DNA of 24,904 bases from Omnitrophica bacterium RIFCSPLOWO2_12_FULL_50_11 (GTDB lineage Bacteria > Omnitrophota > Omnitrophia > Omnitrophales > Danuiimicrobiaceae). Position 1 is the stretch's first letter. Each line of letters opens with the position of its first letter. Positions 2,276 through 22,364 of this stretch are shown here, piece after piece. A program made the position numbers and the translations under genes. The DNA is taken from the NCBI GenBank assembly GCA_001804315.1, contig MHFT01000010.1, forward strand, positions 1 through 24,904, read 5' to 3'. Under the pieces are notes generated by a model. The model had not been told where the DNA came from. It made no database searches and worked only from the letters and a program-made list of their open reading frames with translations.

Positions 2276-2413
2276 GATTAAACTGACCCCTCGGGGAGTT
2301 TTTTTCTCCTTCCTGAGGGGTCATCCTGAGCGAAGCGAAGGATCTTGCGAGATCCTTCGGCCCTTCGGGCCTCAGGATGACGGGTCGGGAAACTCCCGAC
2401 CCGTCAATTAAAC
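2276..2413. repeat. Hairpin-rich interspersed element R1 (MITE/REP-like). Terminal inverted repeats GATTAAACTGACCCCTCGGGGAGTTT / GGGAAACTCCCGACCCGTCAATTAAAC; inverted core GTCATCCTGAG...GAAGGATCTTGCGAGATCCTTC...CTCAGGATGAC
   Basis: Nested inverted repeats read directly from the sequence. It fills nearly the whole mcsB-clpC spacer and its right TIR overlaps the mcsB stop. Related copies sit at 3488, 8645 and 22383. Confidence 0.7.
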
Positions 2414-3481
2414 TAACTCCACGTCCTTCAACCGTGTCCGCAGCAATTCAGCTCGCTTGTAGTCTCGTTCCGCCGTTTTCAAAGTTACCGAACTTAACTT
2501 CTGCAGATGGGCGGGTTGCATGTACAAGAACAGTGCATTTAAATTTTTCTTACTCAAATTCTTAATAAATCCAACATCCACCCCCAACCGCATCAAAGAC
2601 AACAACCCAAGCGTTTCAGCGCTCGACATGAGCCGCGCAGATTTAAGGGCTCCGACGGCGCGCCAGATTTGATCTTCCAGTTTTGCCCGGCGCTTCTCTA
2701 CAAGATGGCTCCTTGCTTCCTTTTCATGTTCGATCACTTGCCGCATGACGCGGTCCAAGCCGTCGACAATTTCCTCTTCGGCTTGGCCGAGTGTCATCTG
2801 ATTTGAAAACTGAAAAAAATTACCGCTTGCCTGCGTTCCCTCCCCAAAAAAACCACGCGCCGTCAAGTTAAGTTTCGAGAGCGCCTGCAAAATTTTGTTC
2901 ACTTGTTTCGTCATCATCAACCCGGCCAGATGCACCATACACGAAGCACGAAGTCCTGTGCCCACATTGGTCGGACACGCCGTCAAATACCCAAGACTCT
3001 CGTGAAACGAATAGGAAAGCCTCTTGTCAAGAGCAGAATCCACTTTGTCAACGAGGCGCCATGCCTCAATTAAATTCAAACCCGATTGAAGCACTTGAAC
3101 CCGCAAATGGTCTTCTTCGAGCACCATGATGCTTATAACTTCATTGCGGCTTACGGCCAACCCCCGTTCGCCTTGATCGGCCGCATGCTCTCGGCTGATC
3201 AAGTGGCGCTCGAGCAAAAATTGCATGTCCAAATCTTTCAGGTTCTTGTAATCAAAAAAATATGAGTCCTTGAGCATGGGCAGGCTGACAACCGCTTTTT
3301 CTACCTCGTCAAGCAGTTGTCGTTGCCGAGCTTCCTCCAACCTTTCCGAAAACGCGTATCCGCTCAGATTTCGGGCGAGCCGGATCCGAGAACTCAGCAC
3401 AATATCATTTTCCGGTCCGGTTCCTCGTAGCCATTCACAGGTTGACGTTAAAAGTTCATTCAGTTCTTTAGTTGGTTCCAT
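2408..3481 (-). CDS. mcsB: Protein arginine kinase McsB (phosphagen/guanidino kinase family)
   Basis: Phosphagen-kinase signature CPTNVGTGLRAS. Lies between mcsA and clpC as in Firmicutes. ATG at 3481; a TTG two codons upstream at 3487 is the alternative start. Confidence 0.88.
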   Translation of the reverse strand: MEPTKELNELLTSTCEWLRGTGPENDIVLSSRIRLARNLSGYAFSERLEEARQRQLLDEVEKAVVSLPMLKDSYFFDYKNLKDLDMQFLLERHLISREHAADQGERGLAVSRNEVISIMVLEEDHLRVQVLQSGLNLIEAWRLVDKVDSALDKRLSYSFHESLGYLTACPTNVGTGLRASCMVHLAGLMMTKQVNKILQALSKLNLTARGFFGEGTQASGNFFQFSNQMTLGQAEEEIVDGLDRVMRQVIEHEKEARSHLVEKRRAKLEDQIWRAVGALKSARLMSSAETLGLLSLMRLGVDVGFIKNLSKKNLNALFLYMQPAHLQKLSSVTLKTAERDYKRAELLRTRLKDVELV

Positions 3482-3487
3482 AATCAA

Positions 3488-3653
3488 GCGTCATTCTGAG
3501 GCAGCATACCAGGCCCTTGCCGAAGTCGCCAAAAGGCATCGGCGACCCGCCAGCACTTTGTGGCGGGAATCCCGACTGAGATCCTTCGCGGCACTTCGCG
3601 TTGGTTTGCTTTCCGCTCAGGATGACGAGACGACGAAAAACGTCGACTCGTCA
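3488..3653. repeat. Interspersed hairpin element R2, a variant of R1: GCGTCATTCTGAG ... GAGATCCTTCGCGGCACTTCGCG ... CGCTCAGGATGAC plus a terminal hairpin GACGAGACGACGAAAAACGTCGACTCGTC
   Basis: Shares the GTCAT(T/C)CTGAG / CTCAGGATGAC inverted core and the GAGATCCTTCG motif with R1, R3 and R4. It fills the mcsA-mcsB spacer and its last hairpin overlaps the mcsA stop codon. Confidence 0.6.
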
Positions 3654-4166
3654 CTTTTGTTTTTTATCCGACTTCTTCACTCTTTCTTCCAGCTGATGGA
3701 TCCGGTCCCGGATCTGAGCGGCCTCTTCAAACGTTTCAGCTGCGATGCATTTTTTCAAGCGCTCGTGGAGGTCTCGCAATTCAACGGACCATTTCATTTC
3801 ACCTGTCGCTTTTGCGGGTACCTTCCCGACATGGCGTAGCTCACGCTGAACCCGTTTCAGGAGCGGTGTGAGCACCCGCTCAAAAAACCGGTAGCAATCC
3901 GCACAGCCCAAACGTCCCGTTCTTCCAAAGTCCTCATACGACATGCTACAAGTTTTACAGGTGAGCTTTTCTCCTGCTTCGTCGCGACCGGTCACGCCGA
4001 TATCAGACAGACTCGCCAAAAGTTTATTGAAATCAAAATGGGTCTTAAAATCGGAGCCTTTTTGCTCCGCACAACTTTCGCACAAATGGACTTCCACCAT
4101 CTGATTGTTCATAATTTCCGTCAAATGAATCGTGGCCTCGTTCTGTCCACACGCATTGCAAATCAT
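3651..4166 (-). CDS. mcsA: McsA, activator of protein arginine kinase (N-terminal CxxC zinc fingers plus UVR-like motif)
   Basis: MICNACGQNEATIHLTEI...CESCAEQKG...CKTCSMSYEDF...LGCADCY cysteine pairs, and a C-terminal UVR-like helix (FEEAAQIRDRIHQLE). It sits immediately upstream of mcsB. Confidence 0.82.
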   Translation of the reverse strand: MICNACGQNEATIHLTEIMNNQMVEVHLCESCAEQKGSDFKTHFDFNKLLASLSDIGVTGRDEAGEKLTCKTCSMSYEDFGRTGRLGCADCYRFFERVLTPLLKRVQRELRHVGKVPAKATGEMKWSVELRDLHERLKKCIAAETFEEAAQIRDRIHQLEERVKKSDKKQK

Positions 4167-8770: not shown

Positions 8771-8927
8771 CTTACTACGTGATGTGGACAGTGTCAATGA
8801 ACCTGAGTGCTTACGACTCTGCTTAAATGATGGCGTGACGCCAAGTTGCAGCAAGTCCGTGATAAGCAAGCCTAAACTCAATTTCAGACTCAATTTCTGC
8901 GTGACAAAGCCGATGAGCATTGGTAGA

Positions 8928-9500
8928 ATGCCGCTCTTCATGCCGGTTCCGAAAAGGTCAGATCCAACGCTCATCAAAGCCCGTTCCGTATCCCCACCGT
9001 CGATTCTCCATTTACTCAGGCTGCTCGTGCTTCTTACCGTATTTGGTAGTTTCGTTTCAACACCGCCGCTGGGCGCGCAGTCAAGCAAGACACCTCAAGA
9101 ACTTTTATTGACCCCTATGAATGAAATCAATCAAGATCCTTATTTCGGCTGGGTTCTCGCGCAAAGAGACCGCGGCGCAGCGGTTGAGACAGCGAAGATT
9201 GAATACTTAATTGAGCGGATTCGGAAATCGCCTTACCTTTTTATCCGCAATCGAGTCGAATATTCAGCAGCCGAAGCGGCACGACATCTCACTTGGAAAT
9301 ACGAGCATGCACGCCGGTACGCGCTGACCGCACACGATTTCATCCGACACCTCGCAACGCGGTCGCTCGAATCGGGCCTCCTCTACCTCGTCAAACTTCC
9401 GAATGGAACCACGTATCCGGTGAAAGAACTCCTCGAAAATGAGCTTTTCGCACTCGAACAATCTCTCAACAAGAAACAACCCGCACACGTCCCGTTTTAG
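8928..9500 (+). CDS. Secreted/periplasmic protein, DUF5329-like (signal peptide ...LLVLLTVFGSFVSTPPLGAQS)
   Basis: The ORF track's 5' extension to 8730 overlaps repeat R3 and has no start signals. In-frame ATGs at 8913, 8928 and 8940 precede a hydrophobic signal-like segment. The C-terminal block IEYLIERIRKSPYLFIRN..YSAAEAARHL..KYE resembles the DUF5329 family. GTGACA-16-TAGAAT promoter-like boxes lie at 8901/8924. Confidence 0.5.
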   Translation: MPLFMPVPKRSDPTLIKARSVSPPSILHLLRLLVLLTVFGSFVSTPPLGAQSSKTPQELLLTPMNEINQDPYFGWVLAQRDRGAAVETAKIEYLIERIRKSPYLFIRNRVEYSAAEAARHLTWKYEHARRYALTAHDFIRHLATRSLESGLLYLVKLPNGTTYPVKELLENELFALEQSLNKKQPAHVPF

Positions 9501-9753: not shown

Positions 9754-12180
9754 TCAGGCCAAGCGTTCGAAAAACTTCGTTTCTAGTTCCTCGAGGCTTC
9801 TGAGAACTCCTGCGTAAGCGCGCCCGATGGCTTCCTCAAAACTTTTCCCCTTCGCCAGATACAAGATGAAACTGCGGAAACGACTTGCCCCGTACGTTTC
9901 AATCAGATACCGGACGAAAGCCTGCGATTCGCCGTAGTAAACGTTCGCTGCACCTCGAGTTTGCTGTTTGGGATCGACAATCGTGAGCAATTTGAGCGGG
10001 AGGAGCTTTCCTTGTGCCGCTGCCAGTTTGACGGCACGATTCAAGTCCTCTCGTTCCTCATCTTCCTGAGCAAGTGCGAAACCCTCGTGCAGCCACGTGG
10101 GCACGTTCCTATGTTCGCCGGTCAGCTCGTAAAGCACCAGATGCGCCACCTCGTGCGGAAGCGTCGAACTGAAAAAATGCCGCGATCCCAGGTACGTTGT
10201 GATCAACTTTTTTCCGTAATCGGCGTCACCTGCTGCCCAACTCGGTGCGCCACGTTTCTGTTGAAACATCTCCTGGTTCTCAAAAATAAAAATCCGAACG
10301 CGGCCGTCCTCCTGCCAACCTCGTTTCGGACCGTCATCATCCAATCGTTTCAAGATGCGGCCAAGATTTTCTTCGGCGTGCACCAAAACCTTCTGAGAAA
10401 GATCGAAATCTCTGGTCTTCAGGTAAACATTAAAGTGATCTCCCTTAAGCTCCACCCACTCATCTTCCCGTAACGGTTCCTCGTGTTCAGGTTTGATGTG
10501 CTCAAGAACACCGGAGTGCACAAGTAGGGACGGATCGGTCTCCTCCAAATCACGGTGGTGAAGCCTTGCGTCATCTTGAGAAAAGCACGGACAACTGAAC
10601 ACAAAGAGGGCGAAAAATAAAGACGCAAGTTGCCTTCCTCTCGTACGAGCAGAAACAATGGCAAAGGATACAATGAGAACGAACAAGCAAAAAAGAGGAA
10701 ACAAATGCCCACCCTGCTGGTACACCGTCCTCGCCCTTGGAAGCAGCACAGTACGCACGAGCCCGCCGGCGACAAATGTGTCATGCCTATGGGTGTCTTC
10801 AACACGATCGACGACCTCGCCTGTAAAACTCACAAAAGCAGAAACGCCGGTGTTCGCAGCGCGGACAACGGGCACCCCATTTTCAATGGCTCTAAAAATC
10901 GATGCTTGAAGATGTTGGTACGCTGCCGCACTCTTTGAAAACCAAGCGTCGTTGGTCAACACCACGAGAAACTGTGCTCCTCGTTCGACCGCCCGCCGCG
11001 CAAGCGACGGAAAAGTGTCCTCGAAGCAAATGAGCGGCGAAAAGCGCTTCGAATTTTCTAACACAAATACGCTCACATCTTCACCCGCCCGGTAATCCCC
11101 CACGCCGAGCGAATCCGCGAGGCGCTCCAAACCAAACATACCGAAAAACGGCCGCCACGGCACATATTCACCAAACGGAACCAAGCGGACTTTGTCGTAG
11201 CGCGCTTCGAGCCCGGATCCACGTTCCACCAGAAAAACGCTGTTGTAAGATCCTCCTAAAACATCCAAATAAGGACTTCCCAAAACCATCGGAACGTTGA
11301 GCTCTTTTTGAAATTTCAATATTTCCTCACGTTTCGGATCCAAATTAAAGTAACCTGGAAACGCAGCCTCGGGCCAAAGAATTAGCTCGGGCTTGTCATG
11401 TCCCACAAACCGCGTGAGGGCAAGGTGCGTTTCGAGAATCTCCGCTTTCCGTCCTGGATCCCATTTCACGTCCTGCGCAATATTTCCTTGAATCACCGCA
11501 AGTCGAATCTCATCTCCACGGACTGTTGGCTCGTTTCCACGACCAAGGAAAAAAGAACTCGCCAGGATGACAACGAGCGCACCAGTACCAACGGTACCAG
11601 GTACAGAAGGGACAGGTTCACCGAACCTGTCCCTTCTGTACCTGGTACCGAGAAACTGCACCACAAAAAAAATCCCAACATTGACAAACATGACGAGCCA
11701 CGAAACACCGAACGCCCCCACAAAAGCTGCGATCCGTGCAATGCCAAGGTTGGATGTCTGGCTGTACGCCAGTAAATTCCAGCCGAAACCCCAAACGGGA
11801 ATCTCGGTCCGCACCCACTCGAGAACAGCCCACGCCGATGGAATCAGAAAAAGAAAGGCGAAGCGCTGCTTCGATTTCCATACCGAACAAAACACAACGC
11901 CAAAGAGGCCAAAATAAAACGCGTACAAAAAAGCAACAAACACCCAGCCAAAGTACGTGACGTGACGAAGCCACTCCACAGAGGCAAAGAAAAAGAGGAA
12001 ACCCGTCAAGTAGAAGAAACTGAACGCATCGCGCACACGCTCAAGCCGCGCACTCAGACAGAAGATGGGTACAAAAGCAATCCAAGCGAGCCACGAAAAT
12101 GAGAATTTTGGAAAGGAAAGAATAAGGAGCAGAGCGGCGGTCAGCGAACAAACAGTGCCGTGGTACGCGTTTAGCGTCAC
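9754..12180 (-). CDS. lnt: Apolipoprotein N-acyltransferase (Lnt, CN-hydrolase) fused to an extra TM helix and a C-terminal ~290-aa HExxH zinc-peptidase-like (peptidase MA-like) domain
   Basis: N-terminal half: multi-TM region plus nitrilase-fold motifs IRLAVIQGNI, WPEAAFPGYF, SPLICFEDTFP, VLTNDAWFSKSAAAYQH, RAANTGVSAFV. Then a TM/signal-like LFFALFVFSCPCF. Then a soluble domain with HEVAHLVLYELTG ... WLHEGFALAQ (HExxH + EGxA). Proposed start is GTG at 12180 with SD GGGGGGGAGGAA. The ORF-track extension to 12336 overlaps secA and is unlikely. Confidence 0.8.
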   Translation of the reverse strand: MTLNAYHGTVCSLTAALLLILSFPKFSFSWLAWIAFVPIFCLSARLERVRDAFSFFYLTGFLFFFASVEWLRHVTYFGWVFVAFLYAFYFGLFGVVFCSVWKSKQRFAFLFLIPSAWAVLEWVRTEIPVWGFGWNLLAYSQTSNLGIARIAAFVGAFGVSWLVMFVNVGIFFVVQFLGTRYRRDRFGEPVPSVPGTVGTGALVVILASSFFLGRGNEPTVRGDEIRLAVIQGNIAQDVKWDPGRKAEILETHLALTRFVGHDKPELILWPEAAFPGYFNLDPKREEILKFQKELNVPMVLGSPYLDVLGGSYNSVFLVERGSGLEARYDKVRLVPFGEYVPWRPFFGMFGLERLADSLGVGDYRAGEDVSVFVLENSKRFSPLICFEDTFPSLARRAVERGAQFLVVLTNDAWFSKSAAAYQHLQASIFRAIENGVPVVRAANTGVSAFVSFTGEVVDRVEDTHRHDTFVAGGLVRTVLLPRARTVYQQGGHLFPLFCLFVLIVSFAIVSARTRGRQLASLFFALFVFSCPCFSQDDARLHHRDLEETDPSLLVHSGVLEHIKPEHEEPLREDEWVELKGDHFNVYLKTRDFDLSQKVLVHAEENLGRILKRLDDDGPKRGWQEDGRVRIFIFENQEMFQQKRGAPSWAAGDADYGKKLITTYLGSRHFFSSTLPHEVAHLVLYELTGEHRNVPTWLHEGFALAQEDEEREDLNRAVKLAAAQGKLLPLKLLTIVDPKQQTRGAANVYYGESQAFVRYLIETYGASRFRSFILYLAKGKSFEEAIGRAYAGVLRSLEELETKFFERLA
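11594..11649. repeat. Perfect 56-bp palindrome (27-bp arms GGTACCAGGTACAGAAGGGACAGGTTC / GAACCTGTCCCTTCTGTACCTGGTACC, 3-nt centre) lying in-frame inside the lnt CDS
   Basis: Read directly from the sequence. It encodes the polar peptide GTRYRRDRFGEPVPSVPGT between two hydrophobic Lnt segments. Confidence 0.9.
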
Positions 12181-12259
12181 TTCCTCCCCCCCTTGTTCGC
12201 CACAACGCGTTGGCGGAATCCGTCCCAAAACGCTTTGTGGCGAACAAGGGGGGGAGGAA
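12181..12259 (-). promoter_or_regulatory. Hairpin with a 25-bp perfect stem (TTCCTCCCCCCCTTGTTCGCCACAA ... TTGTGGCGAACAAGGGGGGGAGGAA, 29-nt loop) in the secA-lnt spacer; on the mRNA its 3' arm contains the lnt SD and abuts the GTG start
   Basis: Inverted repeat verified base by base. Minus-strand transcript reads 5'-UUCCUCCCCCCC...GGGGGGGAGGAA-GUG. Confidence 0.6.
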
Positions 12260-12293
12260 AAATCGCTAAACAGATACGTGCCGTGAAACACTT

Positions 12294-16357: not shown

Positions 16358-16972
16358 TCATCCGGCCTTATTGCGGGAAAGGGTGACGCGCTCGTAGAAC
16401 CGAGAGCTAATCTGACGATCAAGCTGGCGGACCGACCACCCGCCGCGCAGGGCTTCCACTTCGTAGAACTTGCGTGCGTGAGCAGTCCTTACCGTAAGAA
16501 GCCGGACATAATGAGACCAGGAAAGTGGAAAAATGGCCGCAAGGGCTTCCACATCCAATTTACTCAATCGTGTTGAGGATTTCTCAACAGACACTCGAGA
16601 TTTGCTAGACACCGTCTGGCAGATTCGAGATTTGCGAGACAGTGTCTGGCCAATTTGAGCAGGCGGGTAGGACAGGTAAAATTCACGCATCTGCTGAAGA
16701 TTCTGACGTGAAAAGCCTCGGCCGAATTTTTTGGTTAAATCTCGCGACAGATTTTCAAGAATTGCTTCCCCATATTCAGCCCGCTTTCGGCCTTTTTGTT
16801 CGTATTCGACAACGCGCCGACTGATCTCCCAGTACGTAGCCGTCAATATGGCATTTACAGAGCCGGCAACTTGGTGCCTGGCTTCTTCCAGAAGCCGCTG
16901 AATTCCGCCGAGAAACCGCTGGTATCCCTGCAAAACAGATTCAGATTTTAACCGTTTCATAATGCGTGGCAT
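16358..16972 (-). pseudogene. Degenerate YhcG/DUF1016-family (PDDEXK nuclease) gene; the N-terminal domain is retained and the nuclease core is deleted
   Basis: The YhcG N-terminal domain pattern (RLLEEARHQVAGSVNAILTATYWEISRRVVEYEQ...YGEAILENLSRDLTKKFGRGFSRQNLQQMREFYLSYP ... LSWSHYVRLL...GWSVRQLDRQI) stops after ...FYER. Only about 260 bp remain before prfB. A possible C-terminal remnant (ELKRTRQQLE) sits just downstream in another frame. Likely start is M50 at 16972 (SD GGGAGG, 10-nt spacer). Confidence 0.55.
16596..16655. repeat. Two tandem copies of a 30-nt unit (CGAGATTTGCTAGACACCGTCTGGCAGATT / CGAGATTTGCGAGACAGTGTCTGGCCAATT) inside the DUF1016 remnant
   Basis: Direct repeat, 26/30 identical. 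It encodes a repeated QT(L/V)S(R/S)KSR(I/V) peptide. An adjacent hairpin TGTTGAGgatttCTCAACA lies at 16571-16589. Confidence 0.7.
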
Positions 16973-17237
16973 TTTAACATACCTCCCTTTGAGAATCCTG
17001 ATTTTTTGGTCTAGGATCATCGAGGATTCAGATAGAACTTTGAGGGAGGCGGGTCGCTTGGCAGGCCGAAGAACTCTTTCCTCCTGCACCGCCTTTAAAA
17101 AGCGGCAATATGAATCCAAGAAGAATTCGAGGATCTGTGCATCGATTCAGGGATACAATACTTTCGGCCCTCAGATCGTTGGCTCGCTCGGGAAAAGATA
17201 CCTCAGGGGAACAAACTCCGTAGCCGATAATAATCTT

Positions 17238-17825
17238 ATGAAGAAAATATGGTCATGCGGTTTGCTGATACTGTTAGTGGGATGTTCGGTTCAAAATCCA
17301 AAGGACACCGAACGGGCTATGGCAGTCGCAAGCGAGTTTATAACACTGCTTTATCAATCCAATGACAATGTAAGTCGAGCATTCGCTTTAACATCAAACA
17401 ATTATCAAGTGGTTTCAAATGAAGGAATGACCCGAACGCTGCGGGATGTCGCAGGCGAAATTGTCGGAAATTATCAAAGACACGATCAAGGTACCGATGT
17501 GACTCGTTTGCTCGCACCCGATGCACCTTCCAATGGAAGAGTTATACGGTTTAACGTTGCTTATGAAAACGACCCTGAAGGCCAGCTATTGGTTACCATG
17601 ATAAAAGAAGGCGGTGTGTGGAAGGTCATGGGCTTCAATATCAACTCTCCAAAAATTGCTGGCCTTCAGGGTGACCCTGAAGGCCAGCTATTGGTTACCA
17701 TGATAAAAGAAGGCGGTGTGTGGAAGGTCATGGGCTTCAATATCAACTCTCCAAAAATTGCTGAGAGCCAAGCACGAGGAACGCTGCAACAACCTCCTGG
17801 TGGCAACCCGACGACGGCAACGTAA
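17238..17825 (+). CDS. Lipoprotein (signal peptide MKKIWSCGLLILLVGC with lipobox) with an NTF2/DUF4878-like fold and an internal perfect tandem duplication
   Basis: ATG at 17238 is preceded by a -10-like GATAAT 6 nt upstream. It has a lipobox LVGC. The ORF-track 5' extension to 16962 lacks coding signal. Confidence 0.65.
   Translation: MKKIWSCGLLILLVGCSVQNPKDTERAMAVASEFITLLYQSNDNVSRAFALTSNNYQVVSNEGMTRTLRDVAGEIVGNYQRHDQGTDVTRLLAPDAPSNGRVIRFNVAYENDPEGQLLVTMIKEGGVWKVMGFNINSPKIAGLQGDPEGQLLVTMIKEGGVWKVMGFNINSPKIAESQARGTLQQPPGGNPTTAT
17571..17763 (+). repeat. In-frame tandem duplication, period 102 bp (34 aa), two units 100% identical over 91 nt
   Basis: gaccctgaaggccagctattggttaccatgataaaagaaggcggtgtgtggaaggtcatgggcttcaatatcaactctccaaaaattgctg occurs at 17571-17661 and again at 17673-17763. 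It encodes DPEGQLLVTMIKEGGVWKVMGFNINSPKIA twice. Confidence 0.95.
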
Positions 17826-18142
17826 TCCAGAGAAACCGCGAAAGGAATCCTTTGGTCAATAAAGTTGCCTTAACTTTCAGGAACCTGACCCCAAACTGTC
17901 CGTTCCATTTACCATAACCCAATTATCGGAAATAAGTTTTCCCTGTAAATATTGGTCTCGAATGAACGGTATTTTTTAAAAAAACAGAAAAGATGCTGAC
18001 CTGGTTACGCAATCAGATGAAACAAGGGACTTATCAAAATTCAGCCGTTCTTCCTGATTTATCCGAAGAGGAGATACCGCAAAGAGGAGTAAGTCACTCT
18101 CGGCAATTTGAAGAACAACATCAAACGAAGGAGGATTTTCAA

Positions 18143-19006
18143 ATGATCAATTATATCTCGGGACTTGTCTTTACGATTTTGTTCGTCATTGGCGGAGCCA
18201 TTGCGTGGAACATTTACCTGGCTGATCCGACGCTCGCCGTTTGGTTTTCAATTGTTTGGTTCGTCGGAGATGTCATTATCGCACAAGCCATTCAACTGGC
18301 AGCGCAGTGGGAAAAAGGGGTTATCTTCCGGCTTGGCAAGTTCTCAAGCGTTAAAGGCCCAGGTATTTTCTTGATTATCCCCATCATCGATCAAGTCAAA
18401 ATGGTGGACCTCAGAATCCTCGCCATGGATATTCCGGCTCAACAAGTGATCACCAGGGACAACGTCCCCGTAAAAATAAACGGCGTCCTCTTTTTCAAAG
18501 TTCAAAACGCAGCCGACGCGATCATCAAAGTTCAAGATTATCGCTACGCCATCGGCCAATATGCGCAAACCTCGCTTCGTGATGTGATCGGACAGATGAC
18601 CCTCGATCAATTATTGGTAGAACGCGAAGAAATCGGAAAAAGCATTGAATCCAATGTGGAGAAAGACACACGTGATTGGGGACTGGAAGTAACGGGCATT
18701 CGAATGCAAGACGTCGACATGCCTGAAGAGCTTAAAAAAATGATGTCACGCCAAGCGTCAGCGGAACGCGAAAAACGAGCCACCATTACAAAAGCCGAAG
18801 GCGACAGAGAGGCCGCGATCAATCTTGCGGTGGCCGCGAGAACCATGACAGAGAGCCCCGGTGCGATGCAGTTGAGAACCCTTCAAACTGTTGACGGCCT
18901 TGGTCCTACCGCATCCAATACGGTCGTTCTTGCCGTTCCCGTAAACATCATGGAAGCAGTTGATCAGTTAACTCAAGCCTTAAAAACTAAAAACCAGAAA
19001 TCTTAA
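18143..19006 (+). CDS. SPFH/band-7 (stomatin/flotillin-like) membrane protein
   Basis: N-terminal TM, then an SPFH core (IFRLGKF...IPIIDQV...DVPVKINGVLFFKVQNA...) and a coiled-coil tail. ATG at 18143 has a strong SD AAGGAGGA 8 nt upstream. The ORF-track extension to 17993 is unlikely. Confidence 0.85.
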   Translation: MINYISGLVFTILFVIGGAIAWNIYLADPTLAVWFSIVWFVGDVIIAQAIQLAAQWEKGVIFRLGKFSSVKGPGIFLIIPIIDQVKMVDLRILAMDIPAQQVITRDNVPVKINGVLFFKVQNAADAIIKVQDYRYAIGQYAQTSLRDVIGQMTLDQLLVEREEIGKSIESNVEKDTRDWGLEVTGIRMQDVDMPEELKKMMSRQASAEREKRATITKAEGDREAAINLAVAARTMTESPGAMQLRTLQTVDGLGPTASNTVVLAVPVNIMEAVDQLTQALKTKNQKS

Positions 19007-19035
19007 AACTTGGACTGGGTAACCAAGGGTAAGTC

Positions 19036-19425
19036 GTGAAAAAAACAATTCTAGGGGCGATAATTGCTCTTTCAACTGCTTTGGCGATTGAATTGCCTCT
19101 CATGTTCAATTTAGAATTCACGCCTTTGCGCATCGTTAGAAATGTCGTCATGTATATTCCTCAATTTTTTGCCACCATGATTCATCTTTGGACGTTTTTC
19201 GGCATCAGTCCGAAGGCGTTTCACACGCTTACCCCAATCATGCAAACCCCATTTAACCTTTTCTTCTGGACTCTGATAGGAGGTGCAATAGGAAAGTGGA
19301 TGACAACGAAGCGTAACGCTTTGGTTTTCTTTTTAGTGGCTCTTCCGGTATGCTTTCTTGCAATGCTCATCTTTACAGTGGTTGTAAGTTTTGTTGTTAT
19401 TTATTCAGTGAAAGGCCGAGTCTAA
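19036..19425 (+). CDS. Small polytopic membrane protein (about 4 TM), unknown function
   Basis: GTG start. Strongly hydrophobic throughout. It lies 30 bp downstream of the SPFH gene and is AT-rich like its neighbours. Confidence 0.55.
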   Translation: MKKTILGAIIALSTALAIELPLMFNLEFTPLRIVRNVVMYIPQFFATMIHLWTFFGISPKAFHTLTPIMQTPFNLFFWTLIGGAIGKWMTTKRNALVFFLVALPVCFLAMLIFTVVVSFVVIYSVKGRV

Positions 19426-19578
19426 CCTTAATCGTCGATCGACATTCGCTCATTTGAATTTCTTCCAAGCGCTTCTTGCTATCCTATTGTGGATCGTGAT
19501 ATGGATTGGTTCCTACCTGGCTTTGATCGGTTCACTCCTCTTGGTTGCTAAATCCTTTGCTTGAGTAGGGCAAAAACA

Positions 19579-20097
19579 ATGGATGAATTCTTGACAAGCA
19601 ATTGGCAATTTGAATCTGAACTTTTGACTGAAAAACCAAGACCTGTATCCTATCGATTGTTTTTTTACAATAATTTCGAGGACTACTTCCTGCTTGGTGC
19701 GACCGGTTTCATGAGTTTGCTTTTAGGTTGGTTTGTCGTCACACATGTAAGGCTTGATTCCTTTCTGATCTTTCTGTTATTTGTCCTGCCTTTTCTCTAC
19801 TTGATCTTTTCTATAAGAAAGGAATTATCGATTCATAAGTATTTAACAGCACAGGGAGACCCGATTTGTGGTAAGGTCGAAAAGTATAGTTTATTTCGTT
19901 GGAGTGCCAGAAAGCATCGCCTACAACCCTTTGTCAGCTATGAATATCAAGGCAGGCATTATTTTGAGAAGGTGGTCGGTACCACCGCGTGGTGGTCAGG
20001 CGTCACAAAAGGACGCAATATCACCCTTTTAGTGGATCCTAATAATCCTCACATTTGTGCCATCTATGTTTCCATGCGCTATAAAGCCAAAAAGTGA
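19579..20097 (+). CDS. Membrane protein, DUF3592-like
   Basis: Two TM segments, then a beta-rich domain ending ...GRNITLLVDPNNPHICAIY, resembling DUF3592 C-termini. The start is ATG 19579 or TTG 19561. Confidence 0.55.
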   Translation: MDEFLTSNWQFESELLTEKPRPVSYRLFFYNNFEDYFLLGATGFMSLLLGWFVVTHVRLDSFLIFLLFVLPFLYLIFSIRKELSIHKYLTAQGDPICGKVEKYSLFRWSARKHRLQPFVSYEYQGRHYFEKVVGTTAWWSGVTKGRNITLLVDPNNPHICAIYVSMRYKAKK

Positions 20098-20876
20098 CCT
20101 CCGCAAAAACGATCACGAAATTCGTTTTGGCGTCAAGTTTGGGCTTGTGGCTAATCAGCTTTTTTCAAAAAGACCGTTTTCCGGATAAATCGGCCATTTT
20201 GCCAGAACTTTCTCGCCCACCCATTCAAACTGAAACTGATGCCCAGCCGTTTGAAATTCAGCGAAGAGGTGTGACCTATCGAGTCACGCCGATGCACGAC
20301 TATGAATTATATGGCATGGTGGTTTCTGAGAATGACTTCCGAGATTTTTGGGAAAAAGTACACGAGGATCTGAAAGATCATATCAACGTAAAGGATTTGT
20401 GCGTCATTTGGGGTCCGAATGTTGAATCTGGAATCTATCAGAAACTAGAATTCAGCTCAGGCGAATGGACTTGTTATTATGAGTGGAAGACGGGATCTGA
20501 CCGCGAATCTTGGGCTCAGTTTCAACCCAACGCGCTTTCCAACAACCATTTGCTTTCAGACAAAAGTGAGATTCTGGCGAAGACCGCACTAGCGAAACGA
20601 GGAGACCAAATTCATTTTAAAGGTCATTTAGTTAAGTACAGTTCAAATTTCATGAAGGCACCAAGGATTTCAAGTACCGTTAGAGAAGACAACGGTTGCG
20701 AAGTCGTCTATTTGACCCAGCTTGAAATACTCAAGAAGGCGAATCGTTTCTGGAGGTCTCTATTTTCATTGTCTGGTCGCGTGGCGTTGGTTTGTATCAT
20801 TCTGTTTATGAGCCACTTTCTTATCGAAATTGGCAAGGTCGTAAAGCACGAAGGGCGGAAGCAAAATGGGGACTGA
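20094..20876 (+). CDS. Hypothetical membrane-anchored protein (N- and C-terminal TM segments)
   Basis: GTG start overlapping the upstream stop (GTGA). No family recognised. Same AT-rich composition as the island. Confidence 0.5.
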   Translation: MTSAKTITKFVLASSLGLWLISFFQKDRFPDKSAILPELSRPPIQTETDAQPFEIQRRGVTYRVTPMHDYELYGMVVSENDFRDFWEKVHEDLKDHINVKDLCVIWGPNVESGIYQKLEFSSGEWTCYYEWKTGSDRESWAQFQPNALSNNHLLSDKSEILAKTALAKRGDQIHFKGHLVKYSSNFMKAPRISSTVREDNGCEVVYLTQLEILKKANRFWRSLFSLSGRVALVCIILFMSHFLIEIGKVVKHEGRKQNGD

Positions 20877-20880
20877 TAGG

Positions 20881-20916
20881 CAATTTTCGGAGCGCTCCGA
20901 AAATTGTGTTATTTTG
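20881..20916 (+). terminator. Candidate intrinsic terminator of the island operon: perfect 26-bp palindrome CAATTTTCGGAGC/GCTCCGAAAATTG followed by TGTTATTTTG
   Basis: It begins 5 nt after the stop at 20876. Stem plus T-rich tract. Confidence 0.5.
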
Positions 20917-21098
20917 ATACACCCTCAAAGCATCGTAAGGGTAAGTCTTATCATAAGATAGATCGTGAGCGAGCTTCAGAATGACCTTTTCTCCGTAGGG
21001 TGCGCGCACAGCCCTGAAAAAGGAAAAGGGAAGATGTCATGCCACCTTTTTGTGCCGTTTCGGTACCGCTGGTGAAGGGACAATCAAAGAATCAATGG

Positions 21099-21166
21099 CA
21101 CGTGCGGCGGAGGGCCGCGTCATTCCTTCCAGGCGGGCCAGGACTTCAAGCGGCGTATTTCGGAAC
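21099..21166. repeat. Direct repeat copy S1: a diverged duplicate (about 90% identical over 68 bp) of the uvrC 3' coding end found at 22598-22665
   Basis: CACGTGCGGCGGAGGGCCGCGTCATTCCTTCCAGGCGGGCCAGGACTTCAAGCGGCGTATTTCGGAAC versus CACGTGAGGCTGAAGGCCGCGTCATCCCTTTCAAGCGGGCAAGGACTTCAAGCGGCGTATTTCGGAGC. S1 still translates on the minus strand as RNTPLEVLARLEGMTRPSAAR but has no upstream ORF. Confidence 0.85.
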
Positions 21167-21177
21167 CCCCTAAAAAG

Positions 21178-21206
21178 TTGACATAGGTTATTCTACCGCG
21201 TAAAAT
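21178..21206 (+). promoter_or_regulatory. Sigma70-type promoter TTGACA - 17 nt - TAAAAT ending 6 nt before the ATG at 21213 (leaderless transcript predicted)
   Basis: TTGACA 21178-21183, TAAAAT 21201-21206. There is no room for an SD. Confidence 0.65.
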
Positions 21207-21212
21207 AACCTC

Positions 21213-22364
21213 ATGCTTATGATTCCCCGAGGGCTCGGTCCACTCCTGGCCAAGTCGAAGCGGAGCCTCTTACTCCTTGGCCCGCGACAGACAGGAAAAT
21301 CGACTCTGATTCAAAGCCTCAAACCCGAGCTTACGATCAATTTGGCCCACGAGCCGACCTACTTGGAATTCTCCCGAAACCCGCGAGAGCTTGAGGAGCG
21401 CCTCGCCGCCCGCCCTTACAGAACCGTCTTTGTGGATGAGGTTCAGCGCCTCCCGAGCCTTCTCAACACCCTCCAAGCGATCCTCGATGAGCAAGGACAG
21501 CAGATGAAGTTCTACATGACCGGTTCAAGCGCAAGGAAACTCAAACGGGGCGGGGCCAATTTGCTGCCCGGACGCATCCACACCTATCTCCTTGGACCGT
21601 TAACGGCCCGAGAAATGGGCTACAAGATGAAAACCCAGGAGGCCCTTTCCACAGGGACGCTTCCTGGAATTTGGACCGAACCGCATCGGCAGGAGAAGGA
21701 AAAAGTTTTACGCTCTTACGCAGCCGTTTACCTCAAGGAGGAGATCCAGGCCGAGGCCCTCACCCGGGCGGTGGAGGGGTTTTCGCGCTTCCTCTTTGTG
21801 GCCGCGGCTGAGGCGGGAAAGTTCCTGGACCTTTCCAAGCTCGCTTCCCAGGCTGCGATCCCGCGGCAATCGGCCGTGCGGTATTTTGAGATCCTCGAAG
21901 ACACGCTCCTCGTGCGCCGTTCGGAACCGTTCAGCCGCTCCGAAAGAAGGCGGCTCATTCAAAGCCCCCGATTTTTCTTTTTCGACACCGGGGTGCTGAA
22001 TGGCCTTTTGGAAAATTTTTCGCCCTCGCCTGACAGGATCGGGATGCTCTTTGAACACCTTGTCTTTAATCAAATCGTTCATAGCGCTGCCGCTCAAGAC
22101 ATGCCCGTGCGCCTCGCCTCCTACCGAACCGAGCATGGGGCAGAAGTGGATTTCATCCTGGAATGGAAGGGGGAAGTTTGGGCTGTCGAAGTAAAGGCCT
22201 CCTCCCAGATTCGAACTTCCGATTTAAGGGGCTTGGCGAGCTTTGCCGACTACTACAAAAAGAGACACCGCCCGGTAGTGGTTTATTTAGGGTCTGCCTT
22301 GAAAAGAGTCGGAAAAATTGACGTCTTCCCCTGGCTCGATTTCCTCAAGGAGGCCAGTCTTTAA
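21213..22364 (+). CDS. AAA-family ATPase of the COG1373/DUF4143 type
   Basis: Walker A LLLGPRQTGKSTL, Walker B VFVDEVQ, and the C-terminal DUF4143-like region (FEHLVFNQIV...WAVEVK). Confidence 0.88.
   Translation: MLMIPRGLGPLLAKSKRSLLLLGPRQTGKSTLIQSLKPELTINLAHEPTYLEFSRNPRELEERLAARPYRTVFVDEVQRLPSLLNTLQAILDEQGQQMKFYMTGSSARKLKRGGANLLPGRIHTYLLGPLTAREMGYKMKTQEALSTGTLPGIWTEPHRQEKEKVLRSYAAVYLKEEIQAEALTRAVEGFSRFLFVAAAEAGKFLDLSKLASQAAIPRQSAVRYFEILEDTLLVRRSEPFSRSERRRLIQSPRFFFFDTGVLNGLLENFSPSPDRIGMLFEHLVFNQIVHSAAAQDMPVRLASYRTEHGAEVDFILEWKGEVWAVEVKASSQIRTSDLRGLASFADYYKKRHRPVVVYLGSALKRVGKIDVFPWLDFLKEASL

What the first reader, a model, noticed from the sequence alone, without database searches (positions are those of the whole stretch)
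9754..12180. Lnt fused to a C-terminal HExxH metallopeptidase-like periplasmic domain, in a lipoprotein-pathway neighbourhood
The first ~520 aa are a canonical apolipoprotein N-acyltransferase: polytopic TM plus CN-hydrolase motifs. Instead of stopping, the frame continues through an extra hydrophobic helix (LFFALFVFSCPCF) into a ~290-aa soluble domain carrying HEVAHLVLYELTG and a downstream WLHEGFALAQ. This matches the HExxH + EGxA arrangement of peptidase-MA-like gluzincins.

Such an architecture would tether a zinc peptidase to the enzyme that completes lipoprotein triacylation. lolCDE lies 2.6 kb away.

This could represent an undescribed coupling of lipoprotein acylation with a proteolytic or quality-control step. 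Less interestingly, a frameshift or assembly error could have fused two genes.
Basis: partly seen in the sequence, partly recalled or inferred. Interest (0 to 1): 0.6.

Follow-up and report, generated by a model that had tools for sequence, protein, structure and literature searches.

The report
Lnt fused to periplasmic zinc peptidase
In an uncultured Omnitrophota bacterium, the enzyme that adds the third fatty acid to lipoproteins (Lnt) is joined in one reading frame to an exported zinc-peptidase domain; the fusion is real and recurs in relatives, but nothing yet shows that the peptidase acts on lipoproteins.

Summary
An uninterrupted minus-strand ORF (12180→9754, 808 aa) encodes a complete Lnt, a ninth hydrophobic helix, a disordered linker and a 243-aa Peptidase_MA_2 domain.

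- **Lnt half:** LNT_N and CN_hydrolase match. TIGR00546 scores 314 bits against a cutoff of 133. The E271/K330/C385 triad is present.

It is not an assembly artefact. A second assembly has the same junction. Orthologues 47–50% identical, from several other MAGs, are also fused. In other relatives the two genes are separate but abut (TAA|ATG, or a 4-nt overlap), and there the peptidase has a normal Sec signal peptide. The fusion therefore arose by loss of the stop codon, and the old signal peptide became TM9.

The proposed coupling to lipoprotein processing is unproven.
- Most Omnitrophota Lnt lack the domain.
- Two close relatives carry the peptidase without an adjacent lnt.
- The lnt…lolCDE synteny exists with or without the peptidase.
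- More distant family members sit in type II secretion operons (gspF–X–gspG) or in the cell-wall dcw cluster.

This is a rare, undescribed Lnt architecture whose peptidase half most likely has a general cell-envelope role.

The parts
9754..12180 (-). Whole fused ORF lnt::peptidase (808 aa from GTG 12180; stop codon 9754-9756)
11677..12138 (-). LNT_N polytopic membrane domain (aa 15-168; TM1-TM6)
   Evidence: Pfam PF20154 8.8e-30; hydropathy; AF2 helices
10801..11505 (-). Periplasmic CN_hydrolase (nitrilase-like) catalytic domain of Lnt (aa 226-460). Triad codons: E271 (11368-11370), K330 (11191-11193), C385 (11026-11028).
   Evidence: Pfam PF00795 3.3e-25; invariant columns in A1; alignment to E. 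coli Lnt 5vrg
10648..10704 (-). TM8, the last helix of canonical Lnt (aa 493-511)
   Evidence: hydropathy 2.68; helix 491-512 in the AF2 model
10633..10647 (-). Cytoplasmic loop RTRGR (aa 512-516). The DNA AGAGGAAGG here is homologous to the RBS in front of the stand-alone peptidase gene of relative L001.
10576..10632 (-). TM9 (aa 517-535, QLASLFFALFVFSCPCFSQ): the former Sec signal peptide of the peptidase, now an internal signal-anchor
   Evidence: hydropathy 1.43; homologous to the N-terminal signal peptides of stand-alone homologues; helix 517-529 in AF2
10483..10575 (-). Acidic disordered linker (aa 536-566)
   Evidence: pLDDT <50 for residues 530-566; dN/dS 0.33 against 0.09 for the domain; absent in P0002/P0003
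9757..10482 (-). Peptidase_MA_2 gluzincin domain (aa 567-808). Key codons: H676-E677-x-x-H680 (10141-10155), third zinc ligand E699 (10084-10086), conserved Tyr749 (9934-9936).
8913..9500 (+). Convergent DUF5329 gene (start approximate; has a signal-peptide-like N-terminus). It co-occurs with the peptidase in five lineages of the close subfamily.
   Evidence: Pfam PF17263 3.9e-18; tblastn co-occurrence in L001, L002, L026, L027
12169..12271 (-). Very stable hairpin between the secA stop and the lnt start. It sequesters the GGAGG Shine-Dalgarno sequence and the GTG start codon.
   Evidence: inverted repeat I1; RNA fold -85.5 kcal/mol, z = -10.7

Best explanation
This is a genuine, expressed two-enzyme fusion. 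It arose when the stop codon of lnt was lost in front of an abutting, co-transcribed gene for a small Sec-exported zinc peptidase.

**Lnt half.** Eight TM helices plus a periplasmic nitrilase-like domain carrying the E-K-C triad. It should N-acylate apolipoproteins as usual.

**Topology.** After TM8 a 5-residue positively charged loop (RTRGR) stays in the cytoplasm. The former signal peptide inserts as TM9 (N-in, C-out) and exports the C-terminal 273 residues.

**Peptidase half.** It is a thermolysin-like gluzincin. H676, H680 and E699 would bind zinc, E677 would act as the general base, and Tyr749 is the equivalent of the M1 transition-state Tyr. The domain hangs on a disordered acidic linker of about 31–37 aa at the outer face of the inner membrane. 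Alternatively it is released there by signal peptidase I, since small residues persist at -3/-1 after TM9 in all fused forms.

**Substrate.** Unknown. The family is repeatedly embedded in envelope-biogenesis operons: type II secretion (gspF-X-gspG), dcw (murG-X-murC) and lnt. The most likely role is therefore a general periplasmic envelope-protein or peptide-processing activity. On this reading the fusion mainly gives co-expression and inner-membrane localisation, not a step dedicated to lipoprotein acylation.

**Shown:** the ORF, the domains, the conserved catalytic residues, the fold, purifying selection, and the fused, split and unlinked states in relatives.

**Inferred:** topology, activity, cleavage and substrate class.
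For: **The fusion is real**
- Continuous ORF with three Pfam domains. The lnt equivalog scores above its cutoff. The triad is aligned to E. coli Lnt.
- A second assembly, L028, is 99.8% identical and has the same junction.
- P0002 and P0003 are fused too. They are 50% identical to each other and 46-49% to the window, and the P0003 cluster includes fused members from further MAGs and 10 JGI contigs.

**How it arose**
- Split but abutting forms exist: L002 has lnt TAA|ATG pep, and L027 has a 4-nt overlap.
- Stand-alone homologues carry classical N-terminal signal peptides.
- DNA homology with L001 begins exactly at its RBS+GTG. In the window the same bases are translated as RGRQLA, and there is no in-frame start there.

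**The peptidase looks active**
- H, E, H, W, E, G and Y are invariant in 48 homologues.
- dN/dS is 0.09.

**Topology and tether**
- Hydropathy and positive-inside pattern.
- Full-length AF2 gives pTM 0.68 with the linker at pLDDT <50, so it predicts a flexible tether and no docked interface.

**Family context**
- gspF-X-gspG in 27 of 40 loci; murG-X-murC in another.
Against: - No biochemical or expression data exist.
- Topology and zinc binding are predictions.
- TM9 is only moderately hydrophobic (1.43) and has modest pLDDT (61-72).
- Adjacency or fusion with lnt in 5 of 7 lineages of the close subfamily, together with at least two fusion/fission events, could mean a real functional link with Lnt. 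My 'general envelope role' reading would undervalue that.
- The mycobacterial Lnt-Ppm1 fusion is a precedent in which the fused partner does act on lipoproteins (PMC3850990).
- AF2 with only about 4 fused sequences cannot exclude a domain interface.
Confidence: 0.72

Rival explanations
1. Dedicated coupling. The tethered peptidase acts on Lnt's substrates or products, for example by trimming, shedding or degrading mis-acylated lipoproteins at the periplasmic face before Lol extraction. On this view the fusion is a 'Rosetta stone' for a new step in lipoprotein maturation.
For: - In the close subfamily (at least 45% identity) the peptidase is fused to lnt or directly abuts it in 5 of 7 lineages: the window, P0002, P0003, L002 and L027.
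- Fused forms fall in two separate places in the tree, and one fusion has been kept across 50% sequence divergence.
- Both active sites face the periplasm.
- There is a precedent: in M. tuberculosis Rv2051c, Lnt is fused to Ppm synthase, which also serves lipoprotein modification and is a separate adjacent gene in M. smegmatis (PMC3850990).
Against: - Of the 120 best Lnt hits, 117 have no peptidase domain.
- L001 and L026 keep the peptidase without an adjacent lnt.
- The nearest Lnt relatives have an aldo-keto reductase in that slot.
- Wider family members are in T2SS or dcw operons and never near lnt.
- No docked interface is predicted, and the linker is long and disordered.
- No lipobox is conserved at the junction.
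Confidence: 0.18
2. Polyprotein. The fusion is only a translational vehicle. Signal peptidase I cleaves after TM9, which is a former cleavable signal peptide. This releases a free periplasmic peptidase identical in function to the stand-alone homologues and leaves Lnt with one extra helix. The explanation overlaps with the best one and differs only in the final state of the protein.
For: - Stand-alone homologues have typical SPase-I signal peptides that end just before the conserved W-x-x-x-G-x-HF motif.
- All three fused forms keep small residues at -3/-1 after the hydrophobic core: window CFS|QDD, P0002 AFA|EAG, P0003 SAA|GE.
- Cleavage at an internal signal peptide of a membrane polyprotein has a precedent in Bradyrhizobium FbcH cytochrome b-c1 (from memory, not checked here).
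Against: - No cleavage predictor or experiment was available.
- Proline and cysteine near the putative site in the window (SCPCFS) are not ideal.
- The long linker would be unnecessary if the domain were released, although the stand-alone P0121/P0122 have it too.
Confidence: 0.3
3. Artefact or decaying gene. A sequencing or assembly error, or a recent inactivating mutation, joined two genes, and the C-terminal part is not functional in this organism.
For: - In this particular lineage the fusion is seen only in the window and in the 99.8%-identical L028.
- The closest other lineage (L001, 80% aa identity) has a stand-alone gene.
- L028 shows error-like sequence elsewhere in lnt, at the palindrome.
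Against: - Two different assemblies give an identical junction.
- Independent fused orthologues exist in several MAGs.
- There is no alternative in-frame start for the peptidase in the window, yet the domain is under strong purifying selection (dN/dS 0.09) with all catalytic residues intact.
Confidence: 0.04

Closest known systems
Apolipoprotein N-acyltransferase Lnt (E. coli / P. aeruginosa; PDB 5N6H, 5XHQ, 5VRG, 5N6M; TIGR00546)
   Same: The N-terminal 515 aa match: LNT_N membrane domain, a periplasmic CN_hydrolase domain between TM7 and TM8, and the E-K-C triad (WPE / YDK / ICFE). The equivalog score is well above the cutoff.
   Different: Canonical Lnt ends a few residues after TM8 in the cytoplasm. 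Here a ninth TM helix, a linker and a 243-aa zinc-peptidase domain follow. E. coli Tyr388 is Phe in this clade.
Mycobacterium tuberculosis Ppm1 / Rv2051c (Lnt fused to polyprenol-monophosphomannose synthase)
   Same: It is the only described Lnt fusion I could document. A second enzyme is fused C-terminally to Lnt, and the two are separate adjacent genes in related species (M. smegmatis MSMEG_3860/3859) (PMC3850990).
   Different: The partner there is a glycosyltransferase-type Ppm synthase and is not exported, and its link to lipoprotein glycosylation is experimentally supported. Here the partner is an exported gluzincin peptidase of unknown substrate.
Pfam PF13485 Peptidase_MA_2: small Sec-exported proteins of about 260 aa, including the subfamily embedded in T2SS operons (gspF-X-gspG)
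   Same: The C-terminal domain is a full-length member: 60 bits against 32.4, 3844 relatives at E<1e-3, and the same HExxH…WLxEGxA…Y signature.
   Different: Almost all relatives are free-standing with their own signal peptide. Among the best 150 cluster representatives only P0002 is of Lnt length. No family member appears to be characterised.
M1 aminopeptidases (ColAP 3CIA, LTA4H, PepN, ERAP1)
   Different: There is no GxMEN exopeptidase motif, no N-terminal beta-sandwich domain and no C-terminal helical domain. It is therefore not an M1 member and is probably not an aminopeptidase.
M9 collagenase peptidase domains (Grimontia hollisae 7WSS; ColT 4AR8; ColG 2Y3U) and M30 lugdulysin (7BB8)
   Different: Sequence identity is 12-18% and there is no Pfam M9 or M30 hit. 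The activator and accessory domains are absent.
BepA (E. coli periplasmic M48 metalloprotease with TPR domain)
   Same: A functional analogy only: a periplasmic HExxH protease devoted to envelope biogenesis and quality control. Several Peptidase_MA_2 relatives are fused to TPR repeats or are followed by a TPR gene.
   Different: BepA belongs to a different family (M48, not MA_2). No homology was detected, and BepA is not membrane-tethered to a biosynthetic enzyme.

Membership tests
Lnt (apolipoprotein N-acyltransferase, TIGR00546) | Whole-protein score above the curated equivalog cutoff | tested here: met
   314.5 bits against a cutoff of 132.9
Lnt (apolipoprotein N-acyltransferase, TIGR00546) | N-terminal polytopic membrane domain (LNT_N) followed by a CN_hydrolase domain | tested here: met
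   PF20154 8.8e-30; PF00795 3.3e-25
Lnt (apolipoprotein N-acyltransferase, TIGR00546) | Catalytic triad Glu-Lys-Cys (E. coli E267/K335/C387) | tested here: met
   E271, K330 and C385 are invariant in A1 and aligned to E. coli Lnt. The essential W237 and E343 equivalents (W240, E338) are also invariant. Y388 is Phe.
Lnt (apolipoprotein N-acyltransferase, TIGR00546) | Eight TM helices with the nitrilase domain in the periplasm and the C-terminus in the cytoplasm | tested here: inconclusive
   Hydropathy, positive-inside pattern and AF2 helices agree with the known topology. These are predictions only.
Lnt (apolipoprotein N-acyltransferase, TIGR00546) | N-acylation of diacylglyceryl-Cys apolipoproteins | not testable with these tools
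   Needs complementation of an lnt depletion strain or an in vitro assay.
Peptidase_MA_2 (PF13485), clan MA(E) gluzincins | Pfam score above the gathering threshold | tested here: met
   60-63 bits against 32.4
Peptidase_MA_2 (PF13485), clan MA(E) gluzincins | HExxH plus a downstream Glu as third zinc ligand | tested here: met
   H676-E-x-x-H680 and E699 (spacing x18), invariant in 48 homologues
Peptidase_MA_2 (PF13485), clan MA(E) gluzincins | Thermolysin-like fold (mixed beta-sheet N-subdomain plus helical C-subdomain around the active-site helix) | tested here: met
Peptidase_MA_2 (PF13485), clan MA(E) gluzincins | Zinc-dependent peptide-bond hydrolysis | not testable with these tools
   Needs purified domain.
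M1 aminopeptidases | HExxH-x18-E and catalytic Tyr | tested here: met
   Spacing x18. Y749 aligns with the 'PY' Tyr of ColAP 3CIA.
M1 aminopeptidases | GxMEN exopeptidase motif | tested here: not met
   No G.MEN anywhere in the protein
M1 aminopeptidases | N-terminal beta-sandwich and C-terminal helical domains; Pfam Peptidase_M1 | tested here: not met
   The domain is only 243 aa. There is no PF01433 hit in the window protein.
M9 collagenases / M30 hyicolysins | Sequence-profile membership (Pfam/MEROPS family) | tested here: not met
   No M9 or M30 Pfam hit at E<=1. The resemblance is structural only.
Bacterial lipoprotein (was the fused domain once a lipoprotein, i.e. an Lnt substrate?) | Conserved lipobox [LVI][ASTVI][GAS]C at the end of the signal-peptide-like helix | tested here: not met
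   The window has VFSC. P0002, P0003, P0121, P0122 and P0123 lack an equivalent Cys, and only 10 of 165 relatives show a lipobox-like string.

The most novel reading that the evidence does not exclude
The tethered gluzincin is a previously unknown fourth activity of the lipoprotein maturation pathway in some Omnitrophota. It would act on Lnt substrates or products at the outer face of the inner membrane, for example by clearing mis-processed apolipoproteins or releasing the protein moiety of lipoproteins destined for secretion. The same enzyme family would perform an analogous clearing or processing job for other inner-membrane-anchored, periplasm-facing precursors, such as pseudopilins in T2SS operons. 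That would explain why the family is plugged into lnt, gspF-gspG and dcw operons.
Probability: 0.15. Interest if true: 0.75.

Novelty: new variant of a known kind. Interest (0 to 1): 0.45.

Why it matters
Lnt is an essential, well-studied enzyme, and the only fusion partner I could document for it is the mycobacterial Ppm synthase. A recurrent fusion or tight adjacency with an exported zinc peptidase gives a concrete, testable lead in two directions.

- Some diderm bacteria may couple lipoprotein triacylation with periplasmic proteolysis.
- The uncharacterised PF13485 family of small secreted gluzincins turns out to be embedded in envelope-biogenesis operons (lnt, T2SS, dcw) and now has a context to guide experiments.

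If the link is only co-expression, the case is still a clean natural example of a Sec signal peptide being converted into an internal signal-anchor by loss of a stop codon. Practically, these proteins are annotated only as 'apolipoprotein N-acyltransferase' in GenBank and UniProt, which hides the second enzyme.

Tried and rejected
1. **'Lnt fused to its own substrate'.** I noticed that VFSC after TM9 fits the PROSITE lipobox. I rejected the idea because the Cys is not conserved in any other fused or split orthologue, and lipoboxes are rare in the family.
2. **Assembly or frameshift artefact.** Rejected on the evidence.
3. **Internal translation start for the C-domain.** The RBS-like AGAGGAAGG is there. 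However, the GTG used in L001 is GCG in the window, and no in-frame start follows before the middle of the hydrophobic core.
4. **lolCDE proximity as evidence of coupling.** Rejected, because the same synteny occurs without the peptidase.
5. **Looking for lnt next to distant Peptidase_MA_2 genes** in Verrucomicrobiota, Anaerolineales and metagenome loci. None was found.
6. **Docked Lnt-peptidase interface by AF2.** None was predicted (pTM 0.68, disordered linker). Coordinates and PAE are not returned, so geometry could not be examined.
7. **Literature searches.** Searches for Peptidase_MA_2, PF13485, Lnt fusion/domain architecture, and Lnt in Omnitrophota found nothing relevant.
8. **AFDB Foldseek library** was unavailable.
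9. **Tool limitation.** The search for homologous proteins with the C-domain failed to return the known fused proteins P0001-P0003. Those searches therefore cannot be used to count fusions.
10. **Copies of the intragenic palindrome and the upstream hairpin** elsewhere in the window or in the loci. None was found.
Full report
**1. What is in the sequence.**

The minus strand carries one uninterrupted ORF ending at 9754. The longest version starts at a TTG at 12336. However, the GTG at 12180 is preceded by GGAGG and gives an N-terminus that matches orthologues. I therefore use 12180→9754, which is 808 aa.

- Pfam finds LNT_N (8.8e-30), CN_hydrolase (3.3e-25) and Peptidase_MA_2 (3.5e-16; 60 bits against a gathering score of 32.4).
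- The NCBIfam Lnt equivalog TIGR00546 scores 314.5 bits against a cutoff of 132.9.
- The Lnt part aligns to E. coli and P. aeruginosa Lnt crystal-structure sequences (E ~1e-25). The triad is in place: WPE (E271), YDK (K330) and ICFE (C385).
- The window is the 24,904-bp contig of MAG 'Omnitrophica bacterium RIFCSPLOWO2_12_FULL_50_11'. GenBank annotates the ORF simply as an 845-aa apolipoprotein N-acyltransferase.

**2. Anatomy of the junction.**

Hydropathy and the full-length AlphaFold2 model agree on this order:

- TM8, aa 493-511
- a five-residue loop, RTRGR
- a moderately hydrophobic helix TM9, aa 517-535
- a stretch with pLDDT <50, aa 530-566
- a compact domain, aa 567-808

Lnt's C-terminus is cytoplasmic in the solved structures (established knowledge). 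TM9 therefore runs N-in/C-out, and the peptidase domain is predicted to be periplasmic, on the same side as the Lnt active site. The full-length model has pLDDT 87 but pTM 0.68. This means two confident domains with no confident mutual orientation, that is, a flexible tether.

**3. The C-terminal domain is a bona fide gluzincin.**

- In an alignment of 48 homologues down to about 20% identity, the only invariant residues are H, E, H (HExxH), W, E, G (WLxEG) and one Tyr.
- The spacing is HExxH-x18-E, as in M1 aminopeptidases. The Tyr aligns with the 'PY' catalytic Tyr of cold-active aminopeptidase 3CIA, which is the only PDB sequence hit (E 0.0056).
- The AF2 model of the domain is very confident (pLDDT 94.8, pTM 0.92).
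- It lacks the GxMEN motif and the flanking domains of M1 enzymes. It is therefore M1-like in catalytic chemistry but not an M1 member, and more likely an endopeptidase.
- dN/dS between the window and its 80%-identical stand-alone relative is 0.09 for the domain and 0.33 for TM9 plus linker.

**4. Real fusion or artefact?**

- A second assembly (L028, ENA ERZ4903185) is 99.8% identical over 10 kb and has an identical junction. Its only differences lie in an error-prone palindrome elsewhere in lnt.
- P0002 (793 aa) and P0003 (775 aa) have the same three-domain architecture at 46-49% identity to the window and 50% to each other. The P0003 cluster has further fused members from additional Rifle MAGs and ten JGI contigs.
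- The window has no in-frame start codon that could make the peptidase separately.
- The artefact hypothesis is therefore rejected, at about 4% residual probability.

**5. How the fusion arose.**

The syntenic block prfB-secA-lnt-X-lysS-lolCE-lolD-ilvE is conserved in this Omnitrophota clade. The content of slot X varies:

| Locus | Arrangement |
|---|---|
| L002 (GCA_023247075) | lnt TAA\|ATG peptidase, no spacer; the peptidase begins with a textbook signal peptide (MNKRFLWIGILYLLVANPFGFA\|KGE) |
| L027 | the two genes overlap by 4 nt |
| L001 (80% identical peptidase) | peptidase follows secA directly; lnt is absent from the locus |
| L026 | a different set of genes precedes the peptidase |
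| L004, L005, L006, L071 | X is an aldo-keto reductase; no peptidase |

In L001, DNA homology with the window resumes exactly at L001's RBS+GTG (GAGAAGAGGACAACTGGTG). In the window the same bases are read through as R-G-R-Q-L-A. The window's fusion is therefore best explained by loss of the lnt stop, which turned the peptidase's RBS, start and signal peptide into loop plus TM9.

NJ trees put the window's peptidase with the lnt-less P0121/P0122 and put P0002+P0003 elsewhere. At least two fusion/fission events occurred, but the deep branches are short and the direction of change is an inference.

**6. Does the peptidase work with Lnt?**

For:
- In 5 of 7 lineages of the close subfamily the peptidase is fused to lnt or directly adjacent to it.
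- Fusion has recurred.
- Both active sites face the periplasm.
- M. tuberculosis Rv2051c sets a precedent: Lnt is fused to Ppm synthase, which is a separate neighbour in M. smegmatis, and both serve lipoprotein modification (PMC3850990).

Against:
- 117 of the 120 best Lnt hits, all Omnitrophota-like, have no such domain.
- Two close lineages keep the peptidase without a neighbouring lnt.
- The exhaustive representative search finds 3844 relatives (468 at E<1e-10). Among the best 150 only one is of Lnt length, and the rest are ~260-aa proteins with Sec signal peptides.
- In the metagenome scan, 27 of 40 non-fused loci (27-38% identity) have the gene wedged between gspF and gspG of a type II secretion-like operon: gspE(MshEN+PilZ)-gspF-X-gspG-pseudopilins-gspJ-gspK.
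- A 33%-identical Omnitrophota copy sits between murG and murC in the dcw cluster with overlapping stops and starts.
- None of these, nor the Verrucomicrobiota and Anaerolineales relatives, is near lnt.
- No conserved lipobox exists at the junction.

I conclude that the family is a modular periplasmic peptidase recruited into several envelope-biogenesis operons, and that the lnt link is one such recruitment. A dedicated lipoprotein-processing role remains possible (about 15-20%).

**7. Most likely mechanism.**

- Lnt inserts co-translationally. *(Inferred from established Sec/Lnt biology.)*
- TM9 acts as an internal signal-anchor that exports the C-terminal 273 residues. *(Inferred and from homology of TM9 to signal peptides.)*
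- The domain binds zinc through H676/H680/E699 and hydrolyses peptide bonds, with E677 as base and Y749 stabilising the transition state. *(Inferred from invariance and fold.)*
- The domain stays tethered through a linker of about 31-37 aa, or is clipped off by signal peptidase I at CFS|QDD. The equivalent sites are AFA|EA in P0002 and SAA|GE in P0003. I give cleavage about 30%.

**8. Novelty.**

The architecture is present in public databases but labelled only as Lnt. Full-text searches found no description of it or of PF13485 biology. Both domains belong to known families, so I rate it a new variant of a known kind. The interest is moderate (0.45). It is a clean, recurrent and unexplained fusion involving an essential envelope enzyme, but it is rare, confined to uncultured Omnitrophota, and its functional meaning is still open.

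Noticed in passing
L030-L055, L060 (e.g. L034:542-6240): A subfamily of ~286-aa Peptidase_MA_2 proteins (27-38% identical to the window domain) is embedded between gspF and gspG in type II secretion-like operons: gspE with MshEN+PilZ, gspF, X, gspG, pseudopilins, gspJ, gspK. This holds for 27 of 40 metagenome loci. I found no description of a gluzincin at this position in T2SS operons.
   Followed up: partly
L070:8001-8786: A 33%-identical Omnitrophota homologue (P0290) sits inside the dcw cell-wall cluster between murG and murC. Its stop and start codons overlap those of the neighbours, which suggests translational coupling with peptidoglycan synthesis genes.
   Followed up: no
window 11592-11650 (-): A perfect 28-nt inverted repeat with a 3-nt loop lies inside the lnt coding sequence. 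It encodes GTRYRRDRFGEPVPSVPGT in the cytoplasmic TM6-TM7 loop, which is a 7-aa insertion relative to other Lnt. The near-identical assembly L028 is garbled and frameshifted exactly here. The arrangement is reminiscent of in-frame palindromic element insertions. No other copy was found in the window or in the fetched loci.
   Followed up: partly
window 12169-12271 (-): An extremely stable hairpin lies between the secA stop and the lnt start (24 perfect bp, 43-nt arms; -85.5 kcal/mol, z -10.7). It buries the GGAGG Shine-Dalgarno sequence and the GTG start of lnt, so it could be a translational or attenuation control or a REP-like element. L001 has a different hairpin at the same position after secA. 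The GenBank 845-aa start would translate through this hairpin.
   Followed up: partly
window 8913-9500 (+); L001:6878-7366, L002:7224-7709, L026:8212-8727, L027:1957-2406: A small DUF5329 protein with a signal-peptide-like N-terminus is encoded convergently just downstream of the peptidase (or of peptidase+TPR) in five lineages. It is absent where the peptidase is absent (L004/L005/L071) and absent from the P0002/P0003 loci. It may be a partner or inhibitor.
   Followed up: partly
window 16358-22364: A low-GC stretch (41-47% against ~51%) lies between uvrC and prfB. It encodes DUF1016, a Band_7/SPFH protein, DUF3592, AAA_14/DUF4143 and unannotated ORFs. In L001, L004 and L005, uvrC and prfB are adjacent, so this looks like an inserted island.
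   Followed up: no
L071 and L026 (both JGI sample 3300076214): L071 ends with secA-lnt-AKR-DUF1016-BrnT/CopG toxin-antitoxin and a >1210-aa ORF that runs off the contig. L026 starts with a >1222-aa ORF fragment, followed by AbiEii, the peptidase, TPR/PMT_2, DUF5329, lysS and lolCE. They may be neighbouring contigs of one genome, in which a defence/mobile island split lnt from the peptidase.
   Followed up: no
L002:5428-7227, L026:6361-8196; P0127, P0298, P0301, P0303, P0305, P0311, P0312: Peptidase_MA_2 is recurrently followed by a large TPR protein (one of them with a PMT_2 domain) or fused to TPR repeats. This echoes the peptidase+TPR design of BepA.
   Followed up: no
window 2408-4166 (-): McsB-like ATP:guanido phosphotransferase (protein arginine kinase) and a UVR-motif McsA-like gene lie downstream of ilvE. 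This pair is best known from Firmicutes protein quality control.
   Followed up: no
The search for homologous proteins queried with the C-terminal domain or its alignment did not return the fused proteins P0001-P0003, even though two of them were in the query alignment. Counts of fused versus unfused forms from that tool are therefore unreliable.
   Followed up: yes
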